A DNA stretch of 26,348 nucleotides from the IMG/VR virus record IMGVR_UViG_3300011339_000515, positions 1 to 26,348 of that record. One strand, written 5' to 3'. The notes beneath the pieces were generated by a model. That model was not told the origin of the DNA. It was given only the letters and a program-made list of their open reading frames with translations, and made no database searches. Numbering within the stretch: position 1 is the first letter of the stretch; every line of letters begins with the position of its first letter. Position numbers and translations under genes: made by a program. Of this stretch, positions 3-26,348 are shown one piece after another. This stretch comes from a virus (taxonomy: Duplodnaviria; Caudoviricetes).

Positions 3-1676
3 TACGCAACAGACCCAAATCAATCTGCTTTTGAACCTGAGTATTTTGGAGACTCGTTGTGTAATATTTACATTTCAACTGCTGATGGTGGTTATGACTT
101 ATACCGCGCCGCTGAAGTTGAGGATAATTTTGATTCGGGGTCGTCTGTTGACCAAGAGCAATATTATGACGATGGCTACGGCAACATTTACGCCCTAAAC
201 GACAATGGCGAATATGAGTTATACCGAGCCGCAGAAGTACCAGAAGACATTGTCGAGGAAGACTACGACCTATTCAATGGCGACAATACAGACTACACCG
301 ACTATGATTTTGGTAACTATGAAGAGCCGCCAGCGTATATTGAACCTGATTTAAGTTATTTAGACGATTACAAGCGCGGAGGCTTGATTACCATGATGAA
401 ACAAGGCGGAGTTGCTCATATGGCAGACGGTGGCTATATGCCTGATGGTGCTGTTGACAATGGAGATGGCACATACAGCATTGGTCGCTTTACTTACGAC
501 ATGATGACAGATGAGTACCTGTACTCTACTGACGACGGACAAATCACCAACGTCAATTCTGACGCCGTGTATTCGACAGACCCTGAAGAAGATTATTACG
601 ACACCGACTCATTAGGGAACGTGTACAAAAACGGAGAGTTTTATCGTGCCGCAGAAGCTGATGAGGACATCACATCCGCTGGCGGCGGTAATCGCCCTTG
701 GTATCAAGACCTTGGTAGTGCGTTATCAAAAGGCTTTACGGGTGCAACCAAATTAGGTAGCGATGCATTGAGCGGCATCACTGGCGCACTTGGTACAACC
801 GCAGGTGCGGCTGGGGCTGGCGCATTGGTTGCCACTTTGTTGGGTTCGGATTTTGGTGGCGGTGAAAATCAAAACCAAGGCTTGGATATGTCCAAGGTAG
901 GGGTCATCAATCCGCGCACCACTGACTTTGGGATTGGCCCAACCAAGTTTGTCGGATACGAAGACTACGGCACAGGTGGTGGTGACTACGCCCCAAACGA
1001 AGAGTTGTTGAGGAACTTGAATGCACCGGGCTTCAACCCCGTGAACGAAGGCGACTACGGCTACGAGGAAGTTGCCGCAGAGGAGCCAAAGATGGCTTCA
1101 GGCGGTCTTTCCTCAATGGCTACCCCTGTGGCTTCGTACTACACGTTTGGACAACCTGCGGACATCTTGGCAAACTTGGGTATGCGCCCACAGCCCCCAA
1201 CAAATCCTCCAGAAATGATGCCTCAGATTGGTCAGCAACAACAACCGCAACAAGCCCAACAGCAAGGTTTGCCACAACAGCAACCCCCTCAAATGGCGCA
1301 ACAAACGCCGCAGGGTATGCCACAGCAGGGCATCATGCCTCAACAACAGGGTATGGCTCCTCCGATGCGCAAAGGCGGTTTGCCCCACGCCTCTAACGTG
1401 CCAATCGTCGAAGGACGCATGGATTTCCGTCAAGGCTCCGCAGTGCATGGAGAGGGCGATGGACAATCTGACGACATTCCCGCTATGCTTGCGGATGGCG
1501 AGTATGTGATTGATGCTGAGACTGTTGCCCAGATTGGTAACGGCTCGACAAAGGCAGGCGCACAGGCTTTGGACAAGTTCCGTGAGGGCATCCGCGCCCA
1601 CAAGCGCTCTGCACCTATCAACAAGATACCGCCAAAGACAAAGGCGTTGACCTCATACCTCAAAGGAGCGAGATAA
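3..1676 (+). CDS. Acidic repeat-rich virion-associated/ejection protein, 5'-truncated
   Basis: Frame is open from base 3 (YATDPNQSAFEPEYFGDSL...), so the TTG at 57 is not the true start. Three Y-x-D/GN-x-Y...YRAAE repeats, five phi-x-x-GG motifs, a Q/P-rich tract and a C-terminal G-x-G-D-G-x-SDDIPAMLADGEYV block seen in phage virion proteins. Stop overlaps next ATG. Confidence 0.7.
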   Translation, partial: YATDPNQSAFEPEYFGDSLCNIYISTADGGYDLYRAAEVEDNFDSGSSVDQEQYYDDGYGNIYALNDNGEYELYRAAEVPEDIVEEDYDLFNGDNTDYTDYDFGNYEEPPAYIEPDLSYLDDYKRGGLITMMKQGGVAHMADGGYMPDGAVDNGDGTYSIGRFTYDMMTDEYLYSTDDGQITNVNSDAVYSTDPEEDYYDTDSLGNVYKNGEFYRAAEADEDITSAGGGNRPWYQDLGSALSKGFTGATKLGSDALSGITGALGTTAGAAGAGALVATLLGSDFGGGENQNQGLDMSKVGVINPRTTDFGIGPTKFVGYEDYGTGGGDYAPNEELLRNLNAPGFNPVNEGDYGYEEVAAEEPKMASGGLSSMATPVASYYTFGQPADILANLGMRPQPPTNPPEMMPQIGQQQQPQQAQQQGLPQQQPPQMAQQTPQGMPQQGIMPQQQGMAPPMRKGGLPHASNVPIVEGRMDFRQGSAVHGEGDGQSDDIPAMLADGEYVIDAETVAQIGNGSTKAGAQALDKFREGIRAHKRSAPINKIPPKTKALTSYLKGAR

Positions 1677-2671
1677 TGGCTGGCTTATTTCAGGGTGACC
1701 CATTACCCGCAATTACCAAGACGACGGAAGCCCAACAGACGGCTCCAGAGGTTTACACGAACTACCTTCAGGACATTGCCAACTTAGGTCAGAACGCTGT
1801 CCAACAGGGCGGTATTGCTGGTTTCAGCCCACTGCAACAGCAAGCCTTCCAGATGGCTCCAGACGTCGCTTTTGCTGGCTCTGGGTCTTTGGGTGCGGCT
1901 TCTCAATTGCTGGGCGAGGCAGGCTCTACGACCGTCCCTGACGTCATTGCTGACTACATGAACCCCTACACCTCAAGTGTGGTGGATGAGATGGGTCGCC
2001 TGACCAATCGCAATGTGCAAGAAAACATCCTGCCCAACCTTGGTGCGGCGGCTGTTGGTTCTGGTCAATTTGGTTCACGCCGTCAACAGCAGGTCACTGG
2101 CAACGCTTTGCGCGACATCCAGTCTGATTTGCTGGGTAAGCAGATGCAAGCCCTTCAGCAAGGTTATACACAGGCTGGCACGCAGGCTCAGACGGATTTG
2201 TCTCGCGCCCTGTCTTCTGGTCAAGCGTTTACCAACTTAGGTCAAGAACAACAGCAATTGGGTACAGCAGGTCTGAAGACCATGTCTGATTACGGCTTAC
2301 AACAGCAGGCTCAAGGTCAGAAGTTGCTCGACTACCCAATGGCGCAAGCTCAACAGTTTGCCAAGCTGATGCAGGGCTACCAAATGCCTATGGGTACAAC
2401 CACGCAGGCGACTGGCTCCGAAGGTTACTCCAACAGCCCGTTGTCGCAGATTGCTGGCTTGGGTTCATTGATTGCTTCGTTGTTCCCGAATAAATCCTCT
2501 ATGGACGCTTACTATGAAGCCATGACGCCAAAAAGAAAAGAGGGCGGCCCAATTCGTAAAGCCAATGGTGGTGGTGTGCGCCTCGCTGATGGCGGAATGG
2601 CTCCAACTGGTTCAGAATATCACGATGGCAACGGAAATTTTTACGATGCCGATGGCTACTTAGTGAGGTAA
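1676..2671 (+). CDS. Putative internal virion / DNA ejection (pilot-like) protein
   Basis: 331 aa, A/G/Q-rich, with 'AGFSPLQQQAF', 'YMNPY...VVD' and 'GQFGSRRQ' blocks typical of podovirus ejection proteins; RBS AGGAG at ~1663; lies upstream of the SLT gene. Confidence 0.6.
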   Translation: MAGLFQGDPLPAITKTTEAQQTAPEVYTNYLQDIANLGQNAVQQGGIAGFSPLQQQAFQMAPDVAFAGSGSLGAASQLLGEAGSTTVPDVIADYMNPYTSSVVDEMGRLTNRNVQENILPNLGAAAVGSGQFGSRRQQQVTGNALRDIQSDLLGKQMQALQQGYTQAGTQAQTDLSRALSSGQAFTNLGQEQQQLGTAGLKTMSDYGLQQQAQGQKLLDYPMAQAQQFAKLMQGYQMPMGTTTQATGSEGYSNSPLSQIAGLGSLIASLFPNKSSMDAYYEAMTPKRKEGGPIRKANGGGVRLADGGMAPTGSEYHDGNGNFYDADGYLVR

Positions 2672-14957: not shown

Positions 14958-15268
14958 AAGCCGACCACATCATCAACAACATAGTCACTCAACGCATGGA
15001 GTGCAGGCATTGCGGCTTTACGCAAGCCCTCAAAATGCCAGCCCCTGTTGATGCCATCTTAGGTGAGATGGATGCCTTCCTAGAGGCTCACAAGGATTGC
15101 AAACCACCACAAGCGGAGGCAGTAATGTCTGACTACATCAAAGGCTTTGACGCGGGCTACAGCTACGTCCTGAACGAGATTGAGCAGTATGCCAAAGCGT
15201 ATAGGGGAGACAAGTTGCCCTTCGCCGAGTTGCTCTATCACCTCAAGATGGAAGGCAAGCCTCAATGA
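14954..15268 (+). CDS. Hypothetical protein, possible Zn-binding (CxxC...HxxC)
   Basis: ECRHCG...EAHKDC; coupled to the MTase gene by ATGA. Confidence 0.65.
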   Translation: MKADHIINNIVTQRMECRHCGFTQALKMPAPVDAILGEMDAFLEAHKDCKPPQAEAVMSDYIKGFDAGYSYVLNEIEQYAKAYRGDKLPFAELLYHLKMEGKPQ

Positions 15269-16290
15269 GATTCATTGAGTTGTTTGCAGGCATTGGCGGG
15301 TTCCGTTTAGGGTTGGAGCAGGCGGGACACCAGTGCGTGTGGGCAAACGAAATATTAGAAAAGCCAAGGAGGATTTATGAGCGGAACTTTGGACACCAAC
15401 CTGACCCAAGAGACATTAGAACTGTTCGACCCGACGACATCCCCGATGCCGAACTTTTATGCGGCGGATTCCCGTGCGCGACTTTCAGTGTTGCTGGAAA
15501 GCGCTCTGGATTCTCGACAGAAGATACTCGCGGTACTCTCTTTTTTGAAATCTGTCGCGTTCTCAGAGACAAACGAATACCTTATGTTTTCCTTGAAAAC
15601 GTCAAAGGACTCCTCAACCACGATGGGGGAAGAACCTTTGCTGTCATCATCGCAAGTCTTGATGAACTGGGGTACGACGTTCAATGGGAAGTTGTTAACA
15701 GCCAGAATTTCGGAGTCCCGCAACATCGGGAAAGGGTATTCGTTGTCGGACATTTTAGAGACCGACCCAGACCCCAAGTATTTCCTCTCGGACTCTGCGT
15801 TTCAGAAGATGTTCTCGAAAAAGAAAAAGGAGCGCAAGGAGAAGTTCGAGGAGGGGAACCCGAATCAGGACGACCTGTTCTCATGCCTTTCGTAACGGGT
15901 AAGGTGATGCAGTTCAAGGACGTGTTCCCTACGCTTGACGGTCATTACTGGAAGGGTATCCAAAACAATCAGGGGCGCGGTGCTGTTATGCAGGTTCGCC
16001 CAGTGTTGACACCTCACCGCGAAGAGAAGAGACAAAACGGTCGTCGTGTCAAAGACCACAACGAGCCAGCGTTCACGTTAACCGCTCAAGACAGGCATGG
16101 CGTCATCGTTGGCGAACGCTTGCGTAGGCTCACGCCGCTTGAGTGCGAACGTCTTCAGGGGCTACCCGATAACTTCACCAAGTTCTACGAGGACGGCACG
16201 CTAGTCAGTGACGCAGAGCGTTACGAGCGATGCGGTCGTACCGTCACCATTCCAGTCATCTACGAAATTGCAAAGAGGTTCCCGTTATGA
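15265..16290 (+). CDS. C5 DNA cytosine methyltransferase (Dcm-like), probable carboxymethyltransferase variant
   Basis: Motifs I LFAGIGG, IV GGFPC, VI ENVKG, VIII QHRERVF, IX RRLTPLECERLQG; motif X reads CGRTV instead of the usual GN[SA]V. Confidence 0.92.
   Translation: MRFIELFAGIGGFRLGLEQAGHQCVWANEILEKPRRIYERNFGHQPDPRDIRTVRPDDIPDAELLCGGFPCATFSVAGKRSGFSTEDTRGTLFFEICRVLRDKRIPYVFLENVKGLLNHDGGRTFAVIIASLDELGYDVQWEVVNSQNFGVPQHRERVFVVGHFRDRPRPQVFPLGLCVSEDVLEKEKGAQGEVRGGEPESGRPVLMPFVTGKVMQFKDVFPTLDGHYWKGIQNNQGRGAVMQVRPVLTPHREEKRQNGRRVKDHNEPAFTLTAQDRHGVIVGERLRRLTPLECERLQGLPDNFTKFYEDGTLVSDAERYERCGRTVTIPVIYEIAKRFPL
15377..15895 (+). CDS. Nested +1-frame ORF, putative MTase beta-type polypeptide
   Basis: 172 open codons inside the MTase gene, containing SLKTSKDSST...MNWGTTFNG...SLSDILETDPDPKYFLS, resembling the alternate-frame beta chain of M.EcoHK31I as I recall it. 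Confidence 0.55.
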   Translation: MSGTLDTNLTQETLELFDPTTSPMPNFYAADSRARLSVLLESALDSRQKILAVLSFLKSVAFSETNEYLMFSLKTSKDSSTTMGEEPLLSSSQVLMNWGTTFNGKLLTARISESRNIGKGYSLSDILETDPDPKYFLSDSAFQKMFSKKKKERKEKFEEGNPNQDDLFSCLS

Positions 16291-16943
16291 GTTCATGGAC
16301 GTTTGAGACGCCAGAGATTGCCGCAGGCTTTGATGCCCATGTGCGTGAGCAACTGCCTTGGTATGACATGGTGACCGACGCGGTGGTGTACATCACGCGC
16401 AACTACCTGACAGAGTATGGTGGCATAGTGGACATAGGCGCATCAACGGGGAACATGGTGGATAAACTTCTGCCGCTTGTTTCCGAACGCTCTGCGGACA
16501 TTGTGGCAATTGAAAAAAGCGTGCCGATGTTCAACGTGTTGGAAAAAAAATACAGGCACAGCGATTGCGTTGTTACGGAAAATGTAGATGTGACCAACTC
16601 TCAACTGCCAAAGGCGGATGTGTACATTGTGTTCCTGACAATGATGTTCCTGCCCATCGAAAGCCGCAAAGCCTTAATCAACTCCATGAGGGCGAATTGC
16701 AAGCGTGGTGGAGCCATAGTGGTGGTGGACAAGGTTTGTGACCACGGCGGGTACTTTGCGACCGTCCTGAAGCGTCTCACGATGCAGTTCAAGCTACAGC
16801 AAGGAGTCAAGCCAGAGGATGTGCTGAACAAGGAGATGAGTCTTGCTGGGGTGCAGATACCCCTTGACCCCGCCATGCTGGGGGAGGACGCCAAGCTGTT
16901 CTTCCGTATGGGTGAGTTTGCTGGCTGGGTAATTGAGCGTTAG
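16287..16943 (+). CDS. cmoA: CmoA-like SAM-dependent enzyme (carboxy-SAM synthase family)
   Basis: Start MSSWTF at ATGA overlap. WTF...FDAHVREQLPWY, VDIGASTG, LTMMFL...RKALI...GGAIVVVDK parallel CmoA (WTFD..F.DMI.RSVPGY, YDLGCSLG, FTLQFL...R..LL...GGALVLSEK). Confidence 0.8.
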   Translation: MSSWTFETPEIAAGFDAHVREQLPWYDMVTDAVVYITRNYLTEYGGIVDIGASTGNMVDKLLPLVSERSADIVAIEKSVPMFNVLEKKYRHSDCVVTENVDVTNSQLPKADVYIVFLTMMFLPIESRKALINSMRANCKRGGAIVVVDKVCDHGGYFATVLKRLTMQFKLQQGVKPEDVLNKEMSLAGVQIPLDPAMLGEDAKLFFRMGEFAGWVIER

Positions 16944-19610: not shown

Positions 19611-20189
19611 ATGCCAGAAACCGCTAAGAAGCCTGCTAAGGCATCCAACGCTACCAAGACAATGGGTAAGGTCTCCGCGCCCGCAGAGAAGCCTGTAGCC
19701 CCCAAGAAGATGGGACGCCCTTCAAAGTACGACCCTGAGATAGCACGCATCATCTGTGAGCAGTTGAGTGAAGGTATCCCATTACGTCAGATATGCAGAG
19801 AGAACGATGGGTTCCCTGCGTGGAGGACGGTTTACGATTGGATGGGGCGCGACCCTGAATTATCCGCATCCATCGCACGCGCACGCGACATTGGCTATGA
19901 CGCCATCGCTGAGGAATGCTTGCAGATTGCTGACAACCTTGAGTTCGGTCAGCGTCAGGTAATGACTGACGAGGGGACGGCGACGACGGTCGAGGATATG
20001 CTTGGTCACCGCAAGCTACGCATTGAGACGCGCCTGAAGTTGCTGGCTAAGTTCCACCCCACCAAGTATGGCGACAAGCTGGGACTGCATGGGGTCGAGG
20101 GAGCCGCCGCCATCAAGACCGAAGACACCAACGCCAACAAGTTCCTTGAGGTTATCCGCAACATGGAGATGACCAAGCGTGCTGGCTGA
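19611..20189 (+). CDS. terS: Terminase small subunit
   Basis: GRPSKYDPEIARIICEQLSEGIPLRQIC...P...TVYDW HTH; ARARDIGYDAIAEECLQIAD; RKLRIETRLKLLAK..P.KYGDK; directly upstream of terL. Confidence 0.88.
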   Translation: MPETAKKPAKASNATKTMGKVSAPAEKPVAPKKMGRPSKYDPEIARIICEQLSEGIPLRQICRENDGFPAWRTVYDWMGRDPELSASIARARDIGYDAIAEECLQIADNLEFGQRQVMTDEGTATTVEDMLGHRKLRIETRLKLLAKFHPTKYGDKLGLHGVEGAAAIKTEDTNANKFLEVIRNMEMTKRAG

Positions 20190-21594
20190 GATTCTCGAAG
20201 ACCCAGCAGTACAGGCGGAGTTCAACGCCTTCTCTGACCATGACCGCATTGCCTACATCGCCCACGCCAAGTGGGTAGCCAGCGCCCACCGCTACCAAGT
20301 CCCGCCTCCGCTGGAGATGGACTACACCGTGTGGATGATGCTGGCAGGTCGAGGGGCAGGCAAGACCCGCTCCGCCGCTGAGGCGCTCTGGTGGTGGGCA
20401 TGGACAAACCCGCAGTGCCGTTGCCTAGTCCTCGCGCCCACGTCCAACGACATCAAGTTCACCTGCTTTGAGGGTCAGTCAGGACTCCTCGCTTGCATCC
20501 CTGAGCAACTGGTGGTGGACTACAACAAGCAAGACCATCAGATAAAGCTATCCAATGGCTCCATCATCCGTGGCATCAGTGGCGACAGCTACGAGCGCCT
20601 GCGTGGCCCTCAGTTCCACTTTGCATGGTGCGACGAGTTAGCCGCCTTCCAGTACCTCGGCGCTGGTGAGGCGTGGGACATGATGATGATGGGACTGCGT
20701 TTGGGTGACAAGCCTCGCGTCATTGTGACCACGACACCGCGCCCCAAAGACCTCATCATTGACTTGGTCGGGCGCGAGGGTGACGACGTGGTGATTGACC
20801 GCGCCAGCACATACGAGAACGAGGCGAACCTAGCCTCCACCTTCCGCAAGCAGTTGGAGTCATACAAGGGTTCCAAGCTGTATGAGCAGGAGGTGATGGG
20901 GCAACTGATTGACCTCGAAGATGGCAAGGTGGTGAGCCGCTCCATGTTCAAGATGTACCCAGCCGACCGCCCCTTCCCTAAGTTCGAGTACATCGTGCAG
21001 TCGTATGACTCAGCGTACACGGACAAGACCTACAACGACCCGACCGCTATGACGACGTGGGGTGTGTTCAAGCCAACGGATGGGCCTATGTCCGTCCTGC
21101 TCCTCGACTGCTGGGCTGAACACCTGACGTTCCCCAAGCTGAAGCCAAAGGTGCTGGATGAGTGGCGCGTCTCGTATGGGGATGGCAAGGATGCCAAGCG
21201 CCCTGACTTGATACTGGTTGAGGCGAAGGCGTCAGGGCTGAGTCTTGTACAAGAGTTGCAGGCGATGCACTTGCCTGTACGGGCGTGGAACCCGGGCAAC
21301 GCGGACAAGATGACCCGCTTGCAGATTACCGCCTCCATCTTTGCCACTGGCAGGGTCTGGCTCCCAGAGTCCAGCGTGCATAAGGGCTATGTGAAGGACT
21401 GGGCTGAGGGTTTCCTGTCCCAGATATGCGCTTTCCCTGATGCCGCGCACGATGACTACGTCGACTCAACCACTCAGGCAATTCGCCTGCTTAAAGACAT
21501 GGGCTTCCTCGACATCAATCCTGAGCCTCTGTATGATGACGATGATGACTATGCTTATACCCGTAAAGAGCGGGTCAACCCATATGCGGTGTAA
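20179..21594 (+). CDS. terL: Terminase large subunit
   Basis: Walker A AGRGAGKT, LRGPQFHFAWCDE Walker B, VTTTP coupling motif, nuclease QSYDSA...HDDYVDS. Confidence 0.95.
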   Translation: MLAEILEDPAVQAEFNAFSDHDRIAYIAHAKWVASAHRYQVPPPLEMDYTVWMMLAGRGAGKTRSAAEALWWWAWTNPQCRCLVLAPTSNDIKFTCFEGQSGLLACIPEQLVVDYNKQDHQIKLSNGSIIRGISGDSYERLRGPQFHFAWCDELAAFQYLGAGEAWDMMMMGLRLGDKPRVIVTTTPRPKDLIIDLVGREGDDVVIDRASTYENEANLASTFRKQLESYKGSKLYEQEVMGQLIDLEDGKVVSRSMFKMYPADRPFPKFEYIVQSYDSAYTDKTYNDPTAMTTWGVFKPTDGPMSVLLLDCWAEHLTFPKLKPKVLDEWRVSYGDGKDAKRPDLILVEAKASGLSLVQELQAMHLPVRAWNPGNADKMTRLQITASIFATGRVWLPESSVHKGYVKDWAEGFLSQICAFPDAAHDDYVDSTTQAIRLLKDMGFLDINPEPLYDDDDDYAYTRKERVNPYAV

Positions 21595-21596
21595 CT

Positions 21597-24500
21597 ATGG
21601 CTGACGCAAAGAAGATACTAGGTGGACTCGGCAAGGTGGGTAAGCGCCTGTTGGCGACTGATGACGAGGCGTCGTTGAATGCAATTCGAGCCGCAGGTCG
21701 CGCCGCTCATGAGCAAGAAGCCGCTATCCGCGCCGCTAAGAACGCTGAGGTCAAGGAGCAGATGGCAAGATTGCCTGCCCGCAACAAGAAAGCCAACGAG
21801 GCTTTAGGTTTATATCACCCAGTAGGTGGCGGTCTCAAGCTGTCCAAGCCCACGTCAGGTATGCACGCAACAACCGTGGCTGACCCTAAGTTCAACCCTC
21901 CAGACATTGGCATCATTACGCCTGAGCAGTTGGTCAAAGAGGAGGCGGCGTTGTTCCCCTTGGTTGGTGACCGAGCCGCTGGTGGTCGATACCTCACCCA
22001 CGTTGACGAGAACGAGTTGGAGATTCCTGTCAGGTTGACGGGAGGCCCTCGTTACATGGATGCGAACTACAACCCCATAACCCCTGATGACTCAGCCGCA
22101 TGGGAGTCTGGGGCTGGTCGTGTGACTGCGTTAGGTAAGCAGGCTGAACGCGCAGGGCAAGGCGGTCGACCCGTTTACGGTATCTACACCGCAGGCTCAG
22201 GTACGAACACTGACTTCAACATAATGGGCGCGAATGCGTTGTATCAACAGATTGCACAAGGCAAGATTACAAAGAAGGCGGAGCGGGAGTTTGACAGAGC
22301 GATGAAGGAGGGGACGAAAGAGTTTCCGCCCATCCCAAATTGGCCGGGCATCCGAAGCCCTGAAGCCTACGAACTCTTGCTTGACAAAAGCAACGGCATC
22401 GCCCGCACCAAGCTGTTTGGCGTGATGGGCAAAGAGAACTTTCAATCAATGGGCTTTCCTGATGTACCTGCCACCCGCAAAGCCATCATTGAACCTGAGT
22501 TGCTTGATGTGCCGACCAACCAAGCTGGCTTCAGGCTGGCGCGAATGGATACTACTGGGCGCATCATTGAAAACCCAAACATTCCATCCGACTACCCTAA
22601 AGCAATGGCTGGCAAGGTTGCAGGCAGGCTGGATGTACCCGCAGACTACAAAGACATCTTCCAGTCTCACTTCGACGCCCGCCGCTTGCTGAGTCAACCA
22701 GAGTCAGGCGACTACTATTCTTTCTCACGCGCCCATCCTATTCAGTATGCCGACGACGCTTGGCTCAACAGGCTGATGGAGCAACGCCTTGCCACCGAGC
22801 GCAAGATTAAAGAGGGCGAGTACAAGGAAGGCGGAACCGTCGACATCAGCGAAGCAGATAAGCGACTCGCAAAGGCAATCGAAAACCGAATGGCTAAAGG
22901 TGGAGCAGTTGACCTCGAAGCCGCTGACGCTAGACTGCAAGCCGCTATCGACGCCCGCATGGGCATGGCTGATGGTGGCAAGGTAATCAAGGGCGCGGCT
23001 AAAGCGTTCAAGAAGCTATTTGCTGATGACGTGGTAAATGGAATGCGTATCAGGCAGGATATTCCAAACCAATCTTCAATTGGCGCATCCTTGACTGACT
23101 ACTCTACGCATGGTTTGCAAGAAGTACCAATGAGCGCCTTTGAGACTGTTGGCAAGCCAAGATACAGAAGCGTTCAAGAAGAGAAGCGCACCAAAGAGTT
23201 GGCGCGACAAATCCAAGAGAACAAAGAACTGAACCCTCTGATTGTTGTGAGGGACGCCGAGGGTCACTACATCCTTGAGGGCGGTCATAGGTTCGATGCG
23301 CTGAGGGAGTTGGGTATAGATTCCTTCCCTGCTCTGATGGTGCATGACTTAGAGTCCTTGGGAACTCTTGCCAAAGCCGACGGCGGAAAGATTGTCAAGG
23401 GGGCAAGCAAGGTATTCAAGAAGCTATTTGCGGATGCCCCGCAGGTTGATGCTCTCAAGCTGGCGCAAGAACGCGCCGCTCTGCCCGTGTCCCAAGGCGG
23501 CTTGGGTTTGCCCAAGAACAACACTGCGGAGCAAAGAGCGAAGGCGATGGGCTTTGACCGCGACACCTATCACGGTTCGTTCCGCGACATCAAGAAATTT
23601 GACCCTAGCGTCGGCTCAACTGAGAGCCACGCAGGCAAGGGCATCTACTCGACCGACTCACCAGAAGACGCAAGCCGCAACTACGCCAGCATCTATGGCC
23701 CCGACGTGAGCGGCAGGGTTGAGCGCGGCATGGAGCAGAGAGATAAAGACTTTCGCAAGATTCATGGTCGCATGAGGGATGAGGTTTTGACGCCGCGCCA
23801 GCAAGACATCATCTTGCGCAACACGGTTGGCACAGACAACCTTGGGGTTGTTTACCCATTGAAGATTCGCTCCAACAAGTCCATCCATCTCGATGCACCT
23901 GAGTCAGACCCAGTAAGGATTGGCCCATTTGAGCATTACGACGAAGCGTCTGAAACTTATGTAGATACGCCACACACCCCAAAGTTCAATGAGGCTTTGG
24001 ATGAATTTAGGGAACTTGGTGGTGATGCCAACCCAGTCTATGAAACTGTTCAGGACTACGGTGGCCCAATCCCTGCGCGTGATGTATTCAATGCCGTCAA
24101 GAAGACTGGCAACGAAAGCGGTTTGTACGACCCCTTCACTGGCGACATCGTGTCTGGTGGTGTAGCGGCTGGCGACTTTGTGAAACACTTCGGCATTGAC
24201 GAAATCCGCCACACTCCAAGGTTTATGAACCACGAGTTGAACATTGGCAAAGAACACACAATCAGCTTTGACCCTGACAACGTGCGCTCACGCTTTGCGG
24301 CGTTTGACCCGTTCCGCAGGTCGGCGGCTACTGCGGCGTTAATGGGTGTCGCGGCTCCTGACCTGCTGGCAAAAGAAGCCAAGAACAAGAAGAAAGCCCA
24401 CGGTGGCTTGGCTATGGCTAAGGGCGGGAAGTTGGCGGCAATAGGCAAGCTAGGCAAACGCTTGCTGGCTGACCCTGACGCCGTAACCCCTTCTGTCAGT

Positions 24501-26348
24501 GGCGGAACCCGCAAGTTTGGGAATGATGCCAATGGACTCAACATCATCAAGGAGACTGGTGGTAATTGGTTTCCGTCTGGTGAATTGGTTTATCAGTCCC
24601 AACTTGACCGCGAGTTAGACAAACTCAAAAAAGGAAGATTTGATACGCCTATCAATGTTCTTAGGTATCACATGGAGCAAGATGCGCTTGCTGGTAACAC
24701 AGCGCGTAAGGCTCAGATGGAGCAGGCTCTTGCGCAAGCGTTGAAGACGGAAGCCGCAAACAAGTGGATAGATTCAAACTTACGCAACTACGTTACCAAG
24801 CAGATGGCGACCAAGGACGACCCTGTACGAAAGCTGGCTGACGAAGGCATTAAAGCGTTCCCCGTAAACGTAGATGAATTTGATGAGCCTCAGTTGCGCA
24901 CTTATGGAAGCTACAACTCCAAAATGAAAAGAGAAAAAGCGGGCTTACCAAAAGAAGGCGTTGCTAAATCTCCTCTGGCAAAACATTATGAGACATTGGC
25001 TGATGAGGCGATTAACCCAGTTGACGCCAAGCATTACCAACGCATACAAGATTTGCCAAGGAATCAAAGACCAGCGTATACGATGGATATGCCTTGGGTG
25101 AACAAGTTAGACCCAGAGACACCCATCTATTCGTTAGACAAAGACGCTGACCTCAATAAGCTAGGCTTTGACCACATCATGGATGTCTTGCGTGAAGACC
25201 TTGCCGCTGGTCGCATTCGTCCAGAGCAAATGAACAAGATAAGCATGGAGCAGGCGGTGCGTCGCACGCATGAGTATGACGAGGCGCTGAAGGAAAAGAT
25301 GCTTAACGCAAGGATTGCAGAGCAGGCTAACGCTAACGTGTTCAAGGAGTATCCAGAGGGGTACAAGTGGGTGCAGTTAGATAAGCCGGGGCAGTTCAAC
25401 CTTGAGTCCGACATCATGGGTCACTCTGTGCGTGGGTACGAGCCACCACAAGGTCATCCAGATTGGTCTGACATTTCTGGCAACTCAGGTTACAAAGACT
25501 ACGGTCACGGCGGCTATGAGGCTATCAAGTCAGGAGACGCCAAGATTTACTCTTTGCGCGACCCCAAAGGAATGTCTCATGTAACGGTAGAGGTCGGGCC
25601 TAACGACCACTTAGATTACAACGACTGGTTCAAAAAGCAACCAGAAGAAATCCAAAACAAAATTGCTAAACGAAGATTGGATGATAAAAATCACGACATC
25701 TACTCAGGCCCAGAATATCTTGCAGACCGTGGAAAAATCTTGCCAAAAATTACTCAAATCAAAGGTAAGCAGAACGCCGCGCCCAATGAGAATTACTTGG
25801 AATTTGTCCAAGACTTTGTAAAGAGTGGTGATTGGTCTGAGGTGGGCGACCTTAGCAACACAGGGTTGCGTGATGTTAAGTTTATGACCAACCCAGACGT
25901 ATATCAAAAATATTTGGAGCGCGGATTGAAAGTTCCCAAGTACGCCACCGAAAAAGAGTTGGACGAATTGCATAACGAATATTTGCGTTTGGCAGAACCG
26001 CGCAACTACAAGCCACCAGCAGAAGGCATGGCTGAAGGCGGTGGCGCATTTAAGAAACTACAGTTCATGGGTGGGGGCGGCATCACCACTACGGCTGGCA
26101 CGTTTTCCCCTGAAGAGTTGGGTGTTGAAGCCAGCGACCTCGGTATCAGCGACAAGCGCATGAACCAAATCAAGCGCAACGCCGCAGACTTATGGGGTGA
26201 AGGTAAAGAACAACTTGAAAAAGAATACAAGCAACTTGGTCGTAAGGGAGGTAAGAAAGACTTTGCTCTTCGTGTTGGCTCCCAATTCCTTGGCGGTGGC
26301 TCAGACCTCGTCAATCTAGGCTTGGAGGGCATTGACCTGATACAAGGC
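21597..26348 (+). CDS. Very large multidomain (polyvalent) protein, 3'-truncated: unknown module + ParB/Srx-like + ADP-ribosyltransferase-like + PcfJ-like + further module
   Basis: Manual translation from ATG 21597 (2 bp after terL stop) gives 1584 codons with no stop to the window end. ParB/Srx: NPLIVV...YILEGGHRFDALRELG (~23200-23345). ART-like: YHGS...GKGIYSTDSPEDAS.NYA...VYPLKIR...FDPDNVRSRFAAFD (~23540-24310). PcfJ-like: ESDIMGHSVRGY...IYSLRD...HVTVEV...ITQIKGKQN (~25340-25820). Confidence 0.85.
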   Translation, partial: MADAKKILGGLGKVGKRLLATDDEASLNAIRAAGRAAHEQEAAIRAAKNAEVKEQMARLPARNKKANEALGLYHPVGGGLKLSKPTSGMHATTVADPKFNPPDIGIITPEQLVKEEAALFPLVGDRAAGGRYLTHVDENELEIPVRLTGGPRYMDANYNPITPDDSAAWESGAGRVTALGKQAERAGQGGRPVYGIYTAGSGTNTDFNIMGANALYQQIAQGKITKKAEREFDRAMKEGTKEFPPIPNWPGIRSPEAYELLLDKSNGIARTKLFGVMGKENFQSMGFPDVPATRKAIIEPELLDVPTNQAGFRLARMDTTGRIIENPNIPSDYPKAMAGKVAGRLDVPADYKDIFQSHFDARRLLSQPESGDYYSFSRAHPIQYADDAWLNRLMEQRLATERKIKEGEYKEGGTVDISEADKRLAKAIENRMAKGGAVDLEAADARLQAAIDARMGMADGGKVIKGAAKAFKKLFADDVVNGMRIRQDIPNQSSIGASLTDYSTHGLQEVPMSAFETVGKPRYRSVQEEKRTKELARQIQENKELNPLIVVRDAEGHYILEGGHRFDALRELGIDSFPALMVHDLESLGTLAKADGGKIVKGASKVFKKLFADAPQVDALKLAQERAALPVSQGGLGLPKNNTAEQRAKAMGFDRDTYHGSFRDIKKFDPSVGSTESHAGKGIYSTDSPEDASRNYASIYGPDVSGRVERGMEQRDKDFRKIHGRMRDEVLTPRQQDIILRNTVGTDNLGVVYPLKIRSNKSIHLDAPESDPVRIGPFEHYDEASETYVDTPHTPKFNEALDEFRELGGDANPVYETVQDYGGPIPARDVFNAVKKTGNESGLYDPFTGDIVSGGVAAGDFVKHFGIDEIRHTPRFMNHELNIGKEHTISFDPDNVRSRFAAFDPFRRSAATAALMGVAAPDLLAKEAKNKKKAHGGLAMAKGGKLAAIGKLGKRLLADPDAVTPSVSGGTRKFGNDANGLNIIKETGGNWFPSGELVYQSQLDRELDKLKKGRFDTPINVLRYHMEQDALAGNTARKAQMEQALAQALKTEAANKWIDSNLRNYVTKQMATKDDPVRKLADEGIKAFPVNVDEFDEPQLRTYGSYNSKMKREKAGLPKEGVAKSPLAKHYETLADEAINPVDAKHYQRIQDLPRNQRPAYTMDMPWVNKLDPETPIYSLDKDADLNKLGFDHIMDVLREDLAAGRIRPEQMNKISMEQAVRRTHEYDEALKEKMLNARIAEQANANVFKEYPEGYKWVQLDKPGQFNLESDIMGHSVRGYEPPQGHPDWSDISGNSGYKDYGHGGYEAIKSGDAKIYSLRDPKGMSHVTVEVGPNDHLDYNDWFKKQPEEIQNKIAKRRLDDKNHDIYSGPEYLADRGKILPKITQIKGKQNAAPNENYLEFVQDFVKSGDWSEVGDLSNTGLRDVKFMTNPDVYQKYLERGLKVPKYATEKELDELHNEYLRLAEPRNYKPPAEGMAEGGGAFKKLQFMGGGGITTTAGTFSPEELGVEASDLGISDKRMNQIKRNAADLWGEGKEQLEKEYKQLGRKGGKKDFALRVGSQFLGGGSDLVNLGLEGIDLIQG

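What the first reader, a model, noticed from the sequence alone, without database searches (positions are those of the whole stretch)
21597..26348. Modular effector polyprotein after terL: enzyme modules separated by phi-[AK]-x-G-G motifs and re-started by a repeated amphipathic leader
Seen: a >=1584-aa ORF missing from the ORF track. Its module boundaries coincide with YKEGG (22821), MAKGG (22890), MADGG (22965), KADGG (23373), KAHGG (24393), MAKGG (24414), MAEGG (26028) and MGGGG (26067). After the last GG of three boundaries comes a cationic amphipathic helix that mirrors the true N-terminus: MADAKKILGGLGKVGKRLLA (start), GG-KVIKGAAKAFKKLFAD, GG-KIVKGASKVFKKLFAD, GG-KLAAIGKLGKRLLAD; a shorter GG-GAFKKLQF follows at 26028. 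Known: polyvalent phage/plasmid proteins combine ART, ParB and similar domains, and diglycine-directed polyprotein cleavage exists in adenovirus, ASFV and ubiquitin-like systems. Inference: this is a precursor packaged in the head and cut at the GG sites into separate effectors, each exposing the same targeting/ejection leader. That would amount to a cargo-loading system for injected anti-host enzymes.
Basis: partly seen in the sequence, partly recalled or inferred. Interest (0 to 1): 0.9.

Follow-up and report, generated by a model that had tools for sequence, protein, structure and literature searches.

The report
Swappable-module phage cargo polyprotein
A freshwater phage gene strings swappable protein modules together, joined by a short Gly-Gly peptide and mostly restarted by a copy of the protein's own N-terminal leader; the joints are likely cut, so that each module would be carried in the virus head and injected as a separate piece, which is untested.

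Summary
The ORF (21597 to the contig end, at least 1584 aa) lies after terL; in relatives the portal gene follows. It is a polyvalent-type protein: unknown family, ParB-like, ART-like and PcfJ-related modules. The joints are real. Among 138 relatives of module 1, the motif sits at the module end in 45 of 51 that continue, and in 0 of 50 that stop there. Close strains swap modules between leader and motif. Natural N-termini keep the leader but lack GG (0 of 47). Cultured phage CRP-902 carries such domains as four separate genes with a shared leader and no motif. The motif also marks a basic head-cluster protein and two ejection-region proteins. Cleavage is not shown and no maturation protease was found. 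The nearest mapped precedent, T5 pb2, is cut before A-E-G-G rather than after GG, and that site is disputed. The last module has no leader. This scan noted the GG motif before in other phages (six notes); I saw the leader, stop-codon and strain-swap evidence in none of them. Best reading: cut cargo polyprotein (0.45); rival: uncut docking tag (0.33).

The parts
21597..26348 (+). Large modular protein, at least 1584 aa, cut off by the contig end; about 100 aa probably missing by comparison with L001
   Evidence: L001 (1601 aa) matches aa 927-1583 at 70% and goes on about 100 aa
21597..21659 (+). Natural N-terminal cationic amphipathic leader, no GG at positions 4-5
   Evidence: third-best site in the protein for a matrix built from internal leaders only; strain swap begins at 21659
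21660..22820 (+). Module 1: family without Pfam or PDB match, 1109 relatives at 50% clustering; also occurs as free-standing genes
   Evidence: CRP-902 gp72
22821..22979 (+). Joint 1: YKEGG, 18-aa spacer, MAKGG, 20-aa spacer, MADGG
   Evidence: strain swap ends at 22830/22833
22980..23027 (+). Leader 2 (KVIKGAAKAFKKLFAD)
23028..23372 (+). Module 2: ParB/Srx-like domain
   Evidence: PF02195, 28.1 bits as isolated module; PDB ParB matches E 3e-4
23373..23435 (+). Joint 2 KADGG and leader 3 (KIVKGASKVFKKLFAD)
   Evidence: strain swap begins at 23425
23436..24392 (+). Module 3: likely ADP-ribosyltransferase-like (YHG start), weak match; free-standing motif-less relatives exist (L108-L110)
   Evidence: PF18760 E 0.004, below cut-off
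24393..24473 (+). Joint 3 KAHGG-LA-MAKGG and leader 4 (KLAAIGKLGKRLLAD)
   Evidence: strain swap ends at 24393
24474..26027 (+). Module 4: related to PcfJ-like modules of relatives; no Pfam hit of its own
   Evidence: 38% identity, E 5e-85, to cluster M21, one member of which matches PF14284; DSL-LC04 PcfJ-like protein
26028..26081 (+). Joint 4: MAEGG, spacer GAFKKLQF, MGGGG
   Evidence: strain swap ends at 26031
26082..26348 (+). Start of the terminal module, acidic opening, no leader; in relatives it often ends in basic-GG plus a short tail
   Evidence: 24 of 39 complete relatives end so
20179..21594 (+). Terminase large subunit directly upstream
3..1676 (+). Acidic ejection-region protein (5' cut off) with five motifs and a C-terminal element shared with tape-measure proteins
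1676..2671 (+). DNA ejection protein with three GG motifs in its last 45 aa (RKEGG, KANGG, LADGG)
   Evidence: phrog_4287 E 7e-5

Best explanation
The gene is a cassette array of leader-domain-motif units that strains exchange, and its product is likely a head-packaged precursor that is likely cut at the phi-A-x-G-G joints, so that each domain would be released with its own N-terminal cationic helix, predicted to be the loading or ejection signal. Shown: modular build, motif exactly where a stop codon stands in unfused forms, leader homologous to the natural N-terminus, exchange between leader and motif. Inferred: packaging (from gene position and family), cleavage (from the stop-replacement pattern, short C-terminal tails and the T5 precedent), leader function (by analogy with T4 and P1 targeting peptides). 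I slightly favour the cut before A-x-G-G, which would give A-D-G-G-K-V-I-K-G in register with the Met-trimmed natural start A-D-A-K-K-I-L-G-G. The protease is unknown.
For: Motif at the end of module 1 in 45 of 51 relatives that continue over 60 aa (random windows 7.4, max 13), 20 of 37 with a 16-60 aa tail, 0 of 50 that end within 15 aa; 4 of 37 single-module proteins have any motif against 57 of 64 large ones with two or more. Homology blocks start within 15 aa of a motif in 182 of 398 cases and end so in 228 of 418 (random 55 and 60). 31 architectures in 40 proteins. Strain contigs of two studies replace 21659-22830/22833 and 25789-26031; one replaces 23425-24393. GG at positions 4-5 in 0 of 47 natural N-termini and 1 of 35 in the wider set. 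Internal-leader matrix ranks this protein's N-terminus first in G001, G002, G004. CRP-902 has four free-standing genes with a shared leader, bearing module 1, GNAT, PBECR5 and an unknown domain, without motifs. All four A-D-G-G codons differ synonymously between two copies. Motif two or more times and above shuffles almost only in the cargo protein, basic head-cluster proteins and ejection-region proteins. T5 pb2 is reported cut after R1127 (PMC10038345), which reads R|A-E-G-G.
Against: No cleavage data for any phage of this group. No maturation protease by Pfam in G002 or G004; only a tail-fibre S74 chaperone, an M15 endolysin and, in G004 alone, an ArdC-type metallopeptidase. No HExxH in this protein. 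The T5 site is disputed: V1148 was reported earlier and R1127 is also a trypsin site (PMC11937520). My profile does not link T5 pb2 to the element here and links lambda H only weakly. The terminal module has no leader; only 48 of 136 module-opening contexts pass my leader test (the list includes in-domain hits). The matrix fails for G003 and gives CRP-902's leaders negative scores. N4 virion RNA polymerase and plasmid polyvalent proteins travel uncut (PMC5512222). A joint-only motif is also what an uncut hinge would give.
Confidence: 0.45

Rival explanations
1. The motif is an uncut docking and hinge tag: it binds a head or portal component and loads internal proteins; the chain is ejected whole and the leaders act inside the chain.
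For: The motif occurs 10-17 times in a very basic head-cluster protein (67 copies), in tandem 7-8 aa apart, and near C-termini with tails of a few residues (24 of 39; 66 of 67), where cutting frees no domain. No protease found. In crAss001 the authors model cargo C1 as one continuous chain and the text has no 'cleav' or 'proteas' (PMC10172136); I did not check its motifs myself.
Against: A loading tag should help single-module cargo too, yet 33 of 37 such proteins have none and CRP-902's four genes have none. GG is absent exactly at natural N-termini.
Confidence: 0.33
2. Motif and leader are fusion scars and recombination arms kept as flexible linkers, with no receptor or protease.
For: Strain swaps use leader and motif as flanks. 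Met is the first motif residue before 41 of 55 leaders against 117 of 298 other motifs, as expected of former start codons.
Against: Copies differ at synonymous positions while keeping the peptide. Position-specific preferences beyond glycine: Ala 65% at the second place, A/V/I 74% two after GG in 291 contexts (partly set by my pattern). The motif also marks proteins that are not swapped cassettes, where its glycines are better conserved (0.93) than other glycines (0.83).
Confidence: 0.1
3. The Met of M-A-x-G-G is an internal translation start, giving nested products that each begin with a leader.
For: Met enrichment before leaders (41 of 55), and 54% of 41 such Met codons have an upstream stretch that pairs with the 16S tail against 13% of other Met codons.
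Against: 14 of 55 leaders follow K, F or Y, among them leader 3 here. The pairing comes from Gly-Gly codons, and the first is GGA in 0 of 33 cases, so there is no selection for a real ribosome site. Nested starts would not free C-termini.
Confidence: 0.06

Closest known systems
Polyvalent proteins of phages and conjugative elements (Iyer et al. 2017, PMC5512222; passages read)
   Same: Disparate domains in one chain, beside virion genes; ART-PolyVal, ParB-like, LPD23, PBECR5 and GNAT domains in this family or its unfused forms; processing was proposed.
   Different: Processing there is ascribed to zincin metallopeptidase domains, absent here. The main text has no 'glycine' or 'linker'; no junction motif or repeated leader appears in the passages seen.
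T4 capsid targeting sequences of IPI-IPIII (PMC9026906) and the P1 DarB N-terminal signal (PMC9024508); passages read
   Same: A short shared N-terminal peptide on unrelated internal proteins that lets a phage vary its cargo.
   Different: T4's peptide is removed by gp21; here the leader lies after the joint and would stay on. It is repeated inside one chain, and no gp21-type protease was found.
Tape-measure protein processing in T5 (pb2) and lambda (gpH) (PMC10038345, PMC11937520, PMC12617516; passages read)
   Same: T5 pb2 has R-A-E-G-G at the reported cut; lambda H has FATGG and YATGG in its processed end. The window's ORF 3-1676 shares an element with tape-measure proteins, including Douge gp16.
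   Different: One cut in a tail protein, site disputed (T5) or unknown (lambda), catalyst unknown; homology of T5's element to the one here was not detected.
Gly-Gly-directed maturation in adenovirus and African swine fever virus
   Same: Basic core proteins and polyproteins with GG sites; adenovirus protein VI exposes an amphipathic helix after the cut (recalled).
   Different: Those viruses encode a clan CE cysteine protease; none was detected here.

Membership tests
Polyvalent proteins | Several unrelated domains in one polypeptide, in varying combinations | tested here: met
Polyvalent proteins | Domains of the described repertoire (ART-PolyVal, ParB-like, LPD, PBECR) | tested here: met
   ParB above cut-off here; ART-PolyVal weak here, strong in relatives; LPD23 in 2 of 25 proteins scanned
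Polyvalent proteins | Encoded among late or virion genes | tested here: met
   after terL here; between terL and portal in relatives
Polyvalent proteins | Zincin metallopeptidase as processing domain (common theme, not universal) | tested here: not met
   no HExxH in the part held; the 12 of 65 pattern hits read GHEGRHR, which I take as a ParB-type motif (recalled)
Polyvalent proteins | Packaged in the virion and delivered to the host | not testable with these tools
   inferred from gene position only
GG-cut viral polyproteins (adenain, pS273R type) | GG sites at product borders | tested here: met
GG-cut viral polyproteins (adenain, pS273R type) | Virus-encoded cysteine protease | tested here: not met
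   no such Pfam family in the G002 and G004 proteins scanned; several proteins have no family at all
GG-cut viral polyproteins (adenain, pS273R type) | Cut after the second glycine | not testable with these tools
   no proteomics; the T5 precedent points to another register
T4-type capsid targeting sequence | Shared N-terminal peptide on unrelated cargo | tested here: met
   CRP-902 four genes
T4-type capsid targeting sequence | Peptide removed by a prohead protease | tested here: not met
   the leader lies after the motif and no motif follows it; no prohead protease found
T4-type capsid targeting sequence | Sufficient to load a reporter | not testable with these tools
   needs a cultured phage
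Tape-measure processed-end element | Profile homology to T5 pb2 or lambda H ends | tested here: inconclusive
   Douge gp16 E 1e-6; lambda H 739-769 E 0.04 in a two-sequence search, T5 none; applies to ORF 3-1676, the large protein has the motif only

The most novel reading that the evidence does not exclude
A large group of short-tailed phages uses a two-part peptide code for internal proteins: a processing site cut before A-x-G-G, related to the unexplained tape-measure cuts of T5 and lambda, and a retained cationic leader that addresses each freed effector for loading or ejection. One gene is thereby a plug-in rack of separately delivered effectors, processed without a classical prohead protease.
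Probability: 0.3. Interest if true: 0.9.

Novelty: new variant of a known kind. Interest (0 to 1): 0.7.

Why it matters
It would explain how phages without a recognisable prohead protease load and deliver a fast-changing set of enzymes, and it gives a rule for cutting many dark phage polyproteins into true units. It predicts exact new N-termini, including a site for lambda gpH, whose cut site and catalyst are stated to be unknown (PMC12617516). A transferable leader would be a cargo-loading tag like T4's. Even if uncut, the leader-domain-motif grammar with base-level strain swaps is a clear picture of how polyvalent proteins are shuffled.

Tried and rejected
Single-sequence AlphaFold of aa 322-1001: mean pLDDT 38.9, uninformative, so 'motifs lie in disordered linkers' was not tested structurally. 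Fold of the tape-measure-like element: pLDDT 58.8, no PDB match. Trimer prediction of that element: no verdict. The idea that this element is the processing unit stays open: present in G004, RW, DSL-LC04 and the Manatee phage, absent in CRP-902 (4 of 5), but RW has it without a jointed cargo gene between terL and portal. The 179-aa head gene as protease: rejected, no invariant catalytic-type residue across 24 sequences and present in RW and CRP-902; Atlas gave only unnamed clusters. Module 1 identity: no Pfam (0 of 37), PDB or Atlas lead. Host: only two unrelated genome hits, not determined. No RNA holder listed. DNA-repeat origin of the leaders: rejected, 74% identity with mostly synonymous changes. 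In-domain matches of my pattern (KETGG, YGHGG, FKAGG) exist and were not counted as joints in the parts list; they remain in the counts. Paper searches for the motif system gave nothing relevant; a search for CRP-902 listed one paper with a single mention, not read; PMC12014285 and PMC13033339 passages held nothing on such cleavage. The T5 supplement with the mass data could not be read. Look-ups of earlier notes by sequence, by place and by leader words were blank.

Full report
Observation. The window is a whole 26,348-base contig, about half of a phage whose complete relatives are 54-55 kb with terminal repeats. The ORF from 21597 is open for 1584 codons to the contig end. The motif exceeds shuffles (5 vs 0.31; 7 vs 0.92), but those patterns were fitted to this protein, so I tested relatives.

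Setting. The window holds terS, terL, replication genes and, at its left end, ejection-region genes: a DNA ejection protein match and a lytic transglycosylase. In relatives the order is terL, large protein, portal, GroES-like, three small head genes, capsid, a very basic 390-aa protein, adaptors, tail and ejection genes. I infer a short-tailed phage from the adaptor and ejection matches. The host is unknown. Laid holders are riverine and freshwater metagenomes. Cultured Caulobacter phage RW and Roseobacter phage CRP-902 share the head gene order.

Modules. Of 80 terL relatives, 64 distinct proteins of 290 aa or more follow terL, 39 of them complete, 851-1693 aa. Cutting at motifs and clustering gave 31 architectures in 40 proteins, with my merging of split clusters. 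Module families include ART-PolyVal, ParB, PcfJ-like and GDSL lipase; most have no family. Here module 2 is ParB-like, module 3 weakly ART-like (below cut-off), module 4 related to PcfJ-like modules, and module 1 belongs to a family of 1109 representatives without Pfam or PDB match. 'Enzymes' is therefore partly inference.

The joints are real. First, ungapped homology blocks found without reference to the motif start within 15 aa of one in 182 of 398 cases and end so in 228 of 418; random placement gives 55 and 60 (relatives are not independent). Second, an independent set: of the best 150 relatives of module 1, I used 138 and left out 12 short or partial matches. Where the protein continues over 60 aa, 45 of 51 have a motif at the module end; with a 16-60 aa tail 20 of 37; where it ends within 15 aa, 0 of 50. 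The motif stands where unfused forms have a stop codon. Third, contigs of close strains in runs X13 and X17 (two studies) replace module 1 from 21659, the end of the leader, to 22830/22833 inside YKEGG, and replace 25789-26031 ending at MAEGG; X17 also replaces module 3 from 23425 in leader 3 to 24393, the first base of KAHGG. The 25789 end lies inside module 4, not at a motif, and two smaller joints lie inside module 4 too.

The leader. 35 of 47 distinct natural N-termini are cationic and amphipathic by my thresholds, against 3.8% of random windows; 48 of 136 module-opening contexts are. A matrix from 18 internal leaders ranks this protein's natural start first among the ORFs of G001, G002 and G004 but not G003, and 23 of 48 starts reach 10 bits. 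The natural start is in register with motif plus leader, M-A-D-A-K-K-I-L-G-G against M-A-D-G-G-K-V-I-K-G; 28 of 47 begin M-A-[DEG]-x-K and none has GG at 4-5. CRP-902 has no jointed protein but four free-standing genes between portal and GroES that share an M-A-N-P leader, the only 4 of its 80 proteins to start so. They bear module 1, a weak GNAT, PBECR5 and an unknown domain and lack the motif. Their leader resembles ours by eye but scores below zero on my matrix, so it is a parallel, not a proven homologue. Some relatives split the array into two genes, each with its own start (L104-L107). The terminal module has no leader.

The motif is wider than this gene. It occurs five times in ORF 3-1676 and three times at the end of ORF 1676-2671. 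In four complete genomes, repeated copies above shuffles fall on the cargo protein, the basic protein, a small basic protein and the ejection-region proteins; G003 is weaker, and single copies elsewhere look like chance. The basic protein has 10-17 copies and median net charge +43 in 67 sequences, and 66 of 67 end in basic-GG plus a short tail. The second-last glycine is sometimes Ala, 4% of 291 contexts. Selection is on the peptide: leaders 2 and 3 are 74% alike in DNA and all four A-D-G-G codons differ.

Cut or not. No protease was found. Pfam on the proteins of G002 and most of G004 gave only a tail-fibre chaperone, an endolysin and an ArdC-type peptidase in G004; the conserved 179-aa head gene has no invariant catalytic residue. 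The closest precedent is in tape-measure proteins. The C-terminal element of ORF 3-1676 matches four tape-measure PHROGs and Douge gp16, where it begins YANGG; in RW it follows MARGG directly. T5 pb2 is reported cut after R1127 (PMC10038345, passage), which in the record reads R|A-E-G-G. A reply paper notes an older site, V1148, and that R1127 is a trypsin site (PMC11937520, passage); both lie in the same 22 residues. For lambda gpH, site and catalyst are stated to be unknown (PMC12617516, passages); it has FATGG at 733. My profile did not reach T5 and barely reached lambda, so this is a resemblance, not shown homology. Supplements that I could not see bear on the T5 site.

Reading. I put cutting at 0.45, because GG is lost exactly where a free N-terminus already exists, replaces stop codons and is missing from most single-module cargo. 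An uncut docking tag gets 0.33, because of the saturated basic protein, the short tails and the missing protease. A mere linker or recombination arm gets 0.10 and internal starts 0.06. If cut, I slightly prefer the register before A-x-G-G.

Novelty. The protein is a polyvalent protein by three tested features (PMC5512222, passages) but lacks the metallopeptidase. It works like a T4 or P1 targeting system (passages) but is not one. Four searches found no paper on the motif or leader; the library lacks most subscription papers. This scan noted the GG motif before in six other phage windows, and a GG system in one giant virus; those notes are unchecked leads, and one gave me the T5 lead. New here are the retained leader, the stop-codon test, the strain swaps and the unfused cultured counterpart. 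Verdict: new variant of a known kind, interest 0.7.

Noticed in passing
L087:9378-10762 (G002), also G001: A ketoacyl-synthase gene (PF00109, PF02801) and a small gene that looks like an acyl carrier protein by eye (no Pfam hit) sit between tail and ejection genes; not seen in the ORF list of G004.
   Followed up: no
L086:9461-9886; also RW, CRP-902, DSL-LC04: A GroES-like gene is fixed in the head cluster between portal and the next head genes.
   Followed up: no
L086:14280-15449: Very basic 390-aa protein after the capsid gene, saturated with the motif; at least 46 of 67 copies end in Cys three or four residues after the last GG. At least 585 stretches in IMG/VR encode a relative.
   Followed up: partly
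window 1353-1676: A tape-measure-type element at the end of an acidic ejection-region protein of a probably short-tailed phage; strongly conserved G-Q-S-D-D-I-P-A and H-K-R.
   Followed up: partly
window 21660-22820: Module 1 is a widespread family without a name, with near-invariant G-D-R, W, D, R, Y and Q residues that suggest an enzyme.
   Followed up: partly
L079:11549-12553: A GDSL lipase/acylhydrolase serves as one of the exchangeable modules.
   Followed up: no
L086:12024-12935, residue 70: The capsid protein has YQQGG (YSSGG in RW); one copy, at chance level, probably structural.
   Followed up: partly
window 15265-16943: A C5 DNA methyltransferase followed by a SAM methyltransferase annotated as tRNA methyltransferase-like; G004 has an asparagine-synthase/QueC-like gene between the two, and G002 a TET-associated glycosyltransferase in its early region.
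   Followed up: no
L121:543-3104 (lambda H): FATGG at 733 and YATGG at 778 lie in the processed end whose cut site is unknown; the piece after FATGG weighs 12.2 kDa against the reported ~14 kDa.
   Followed up: partly
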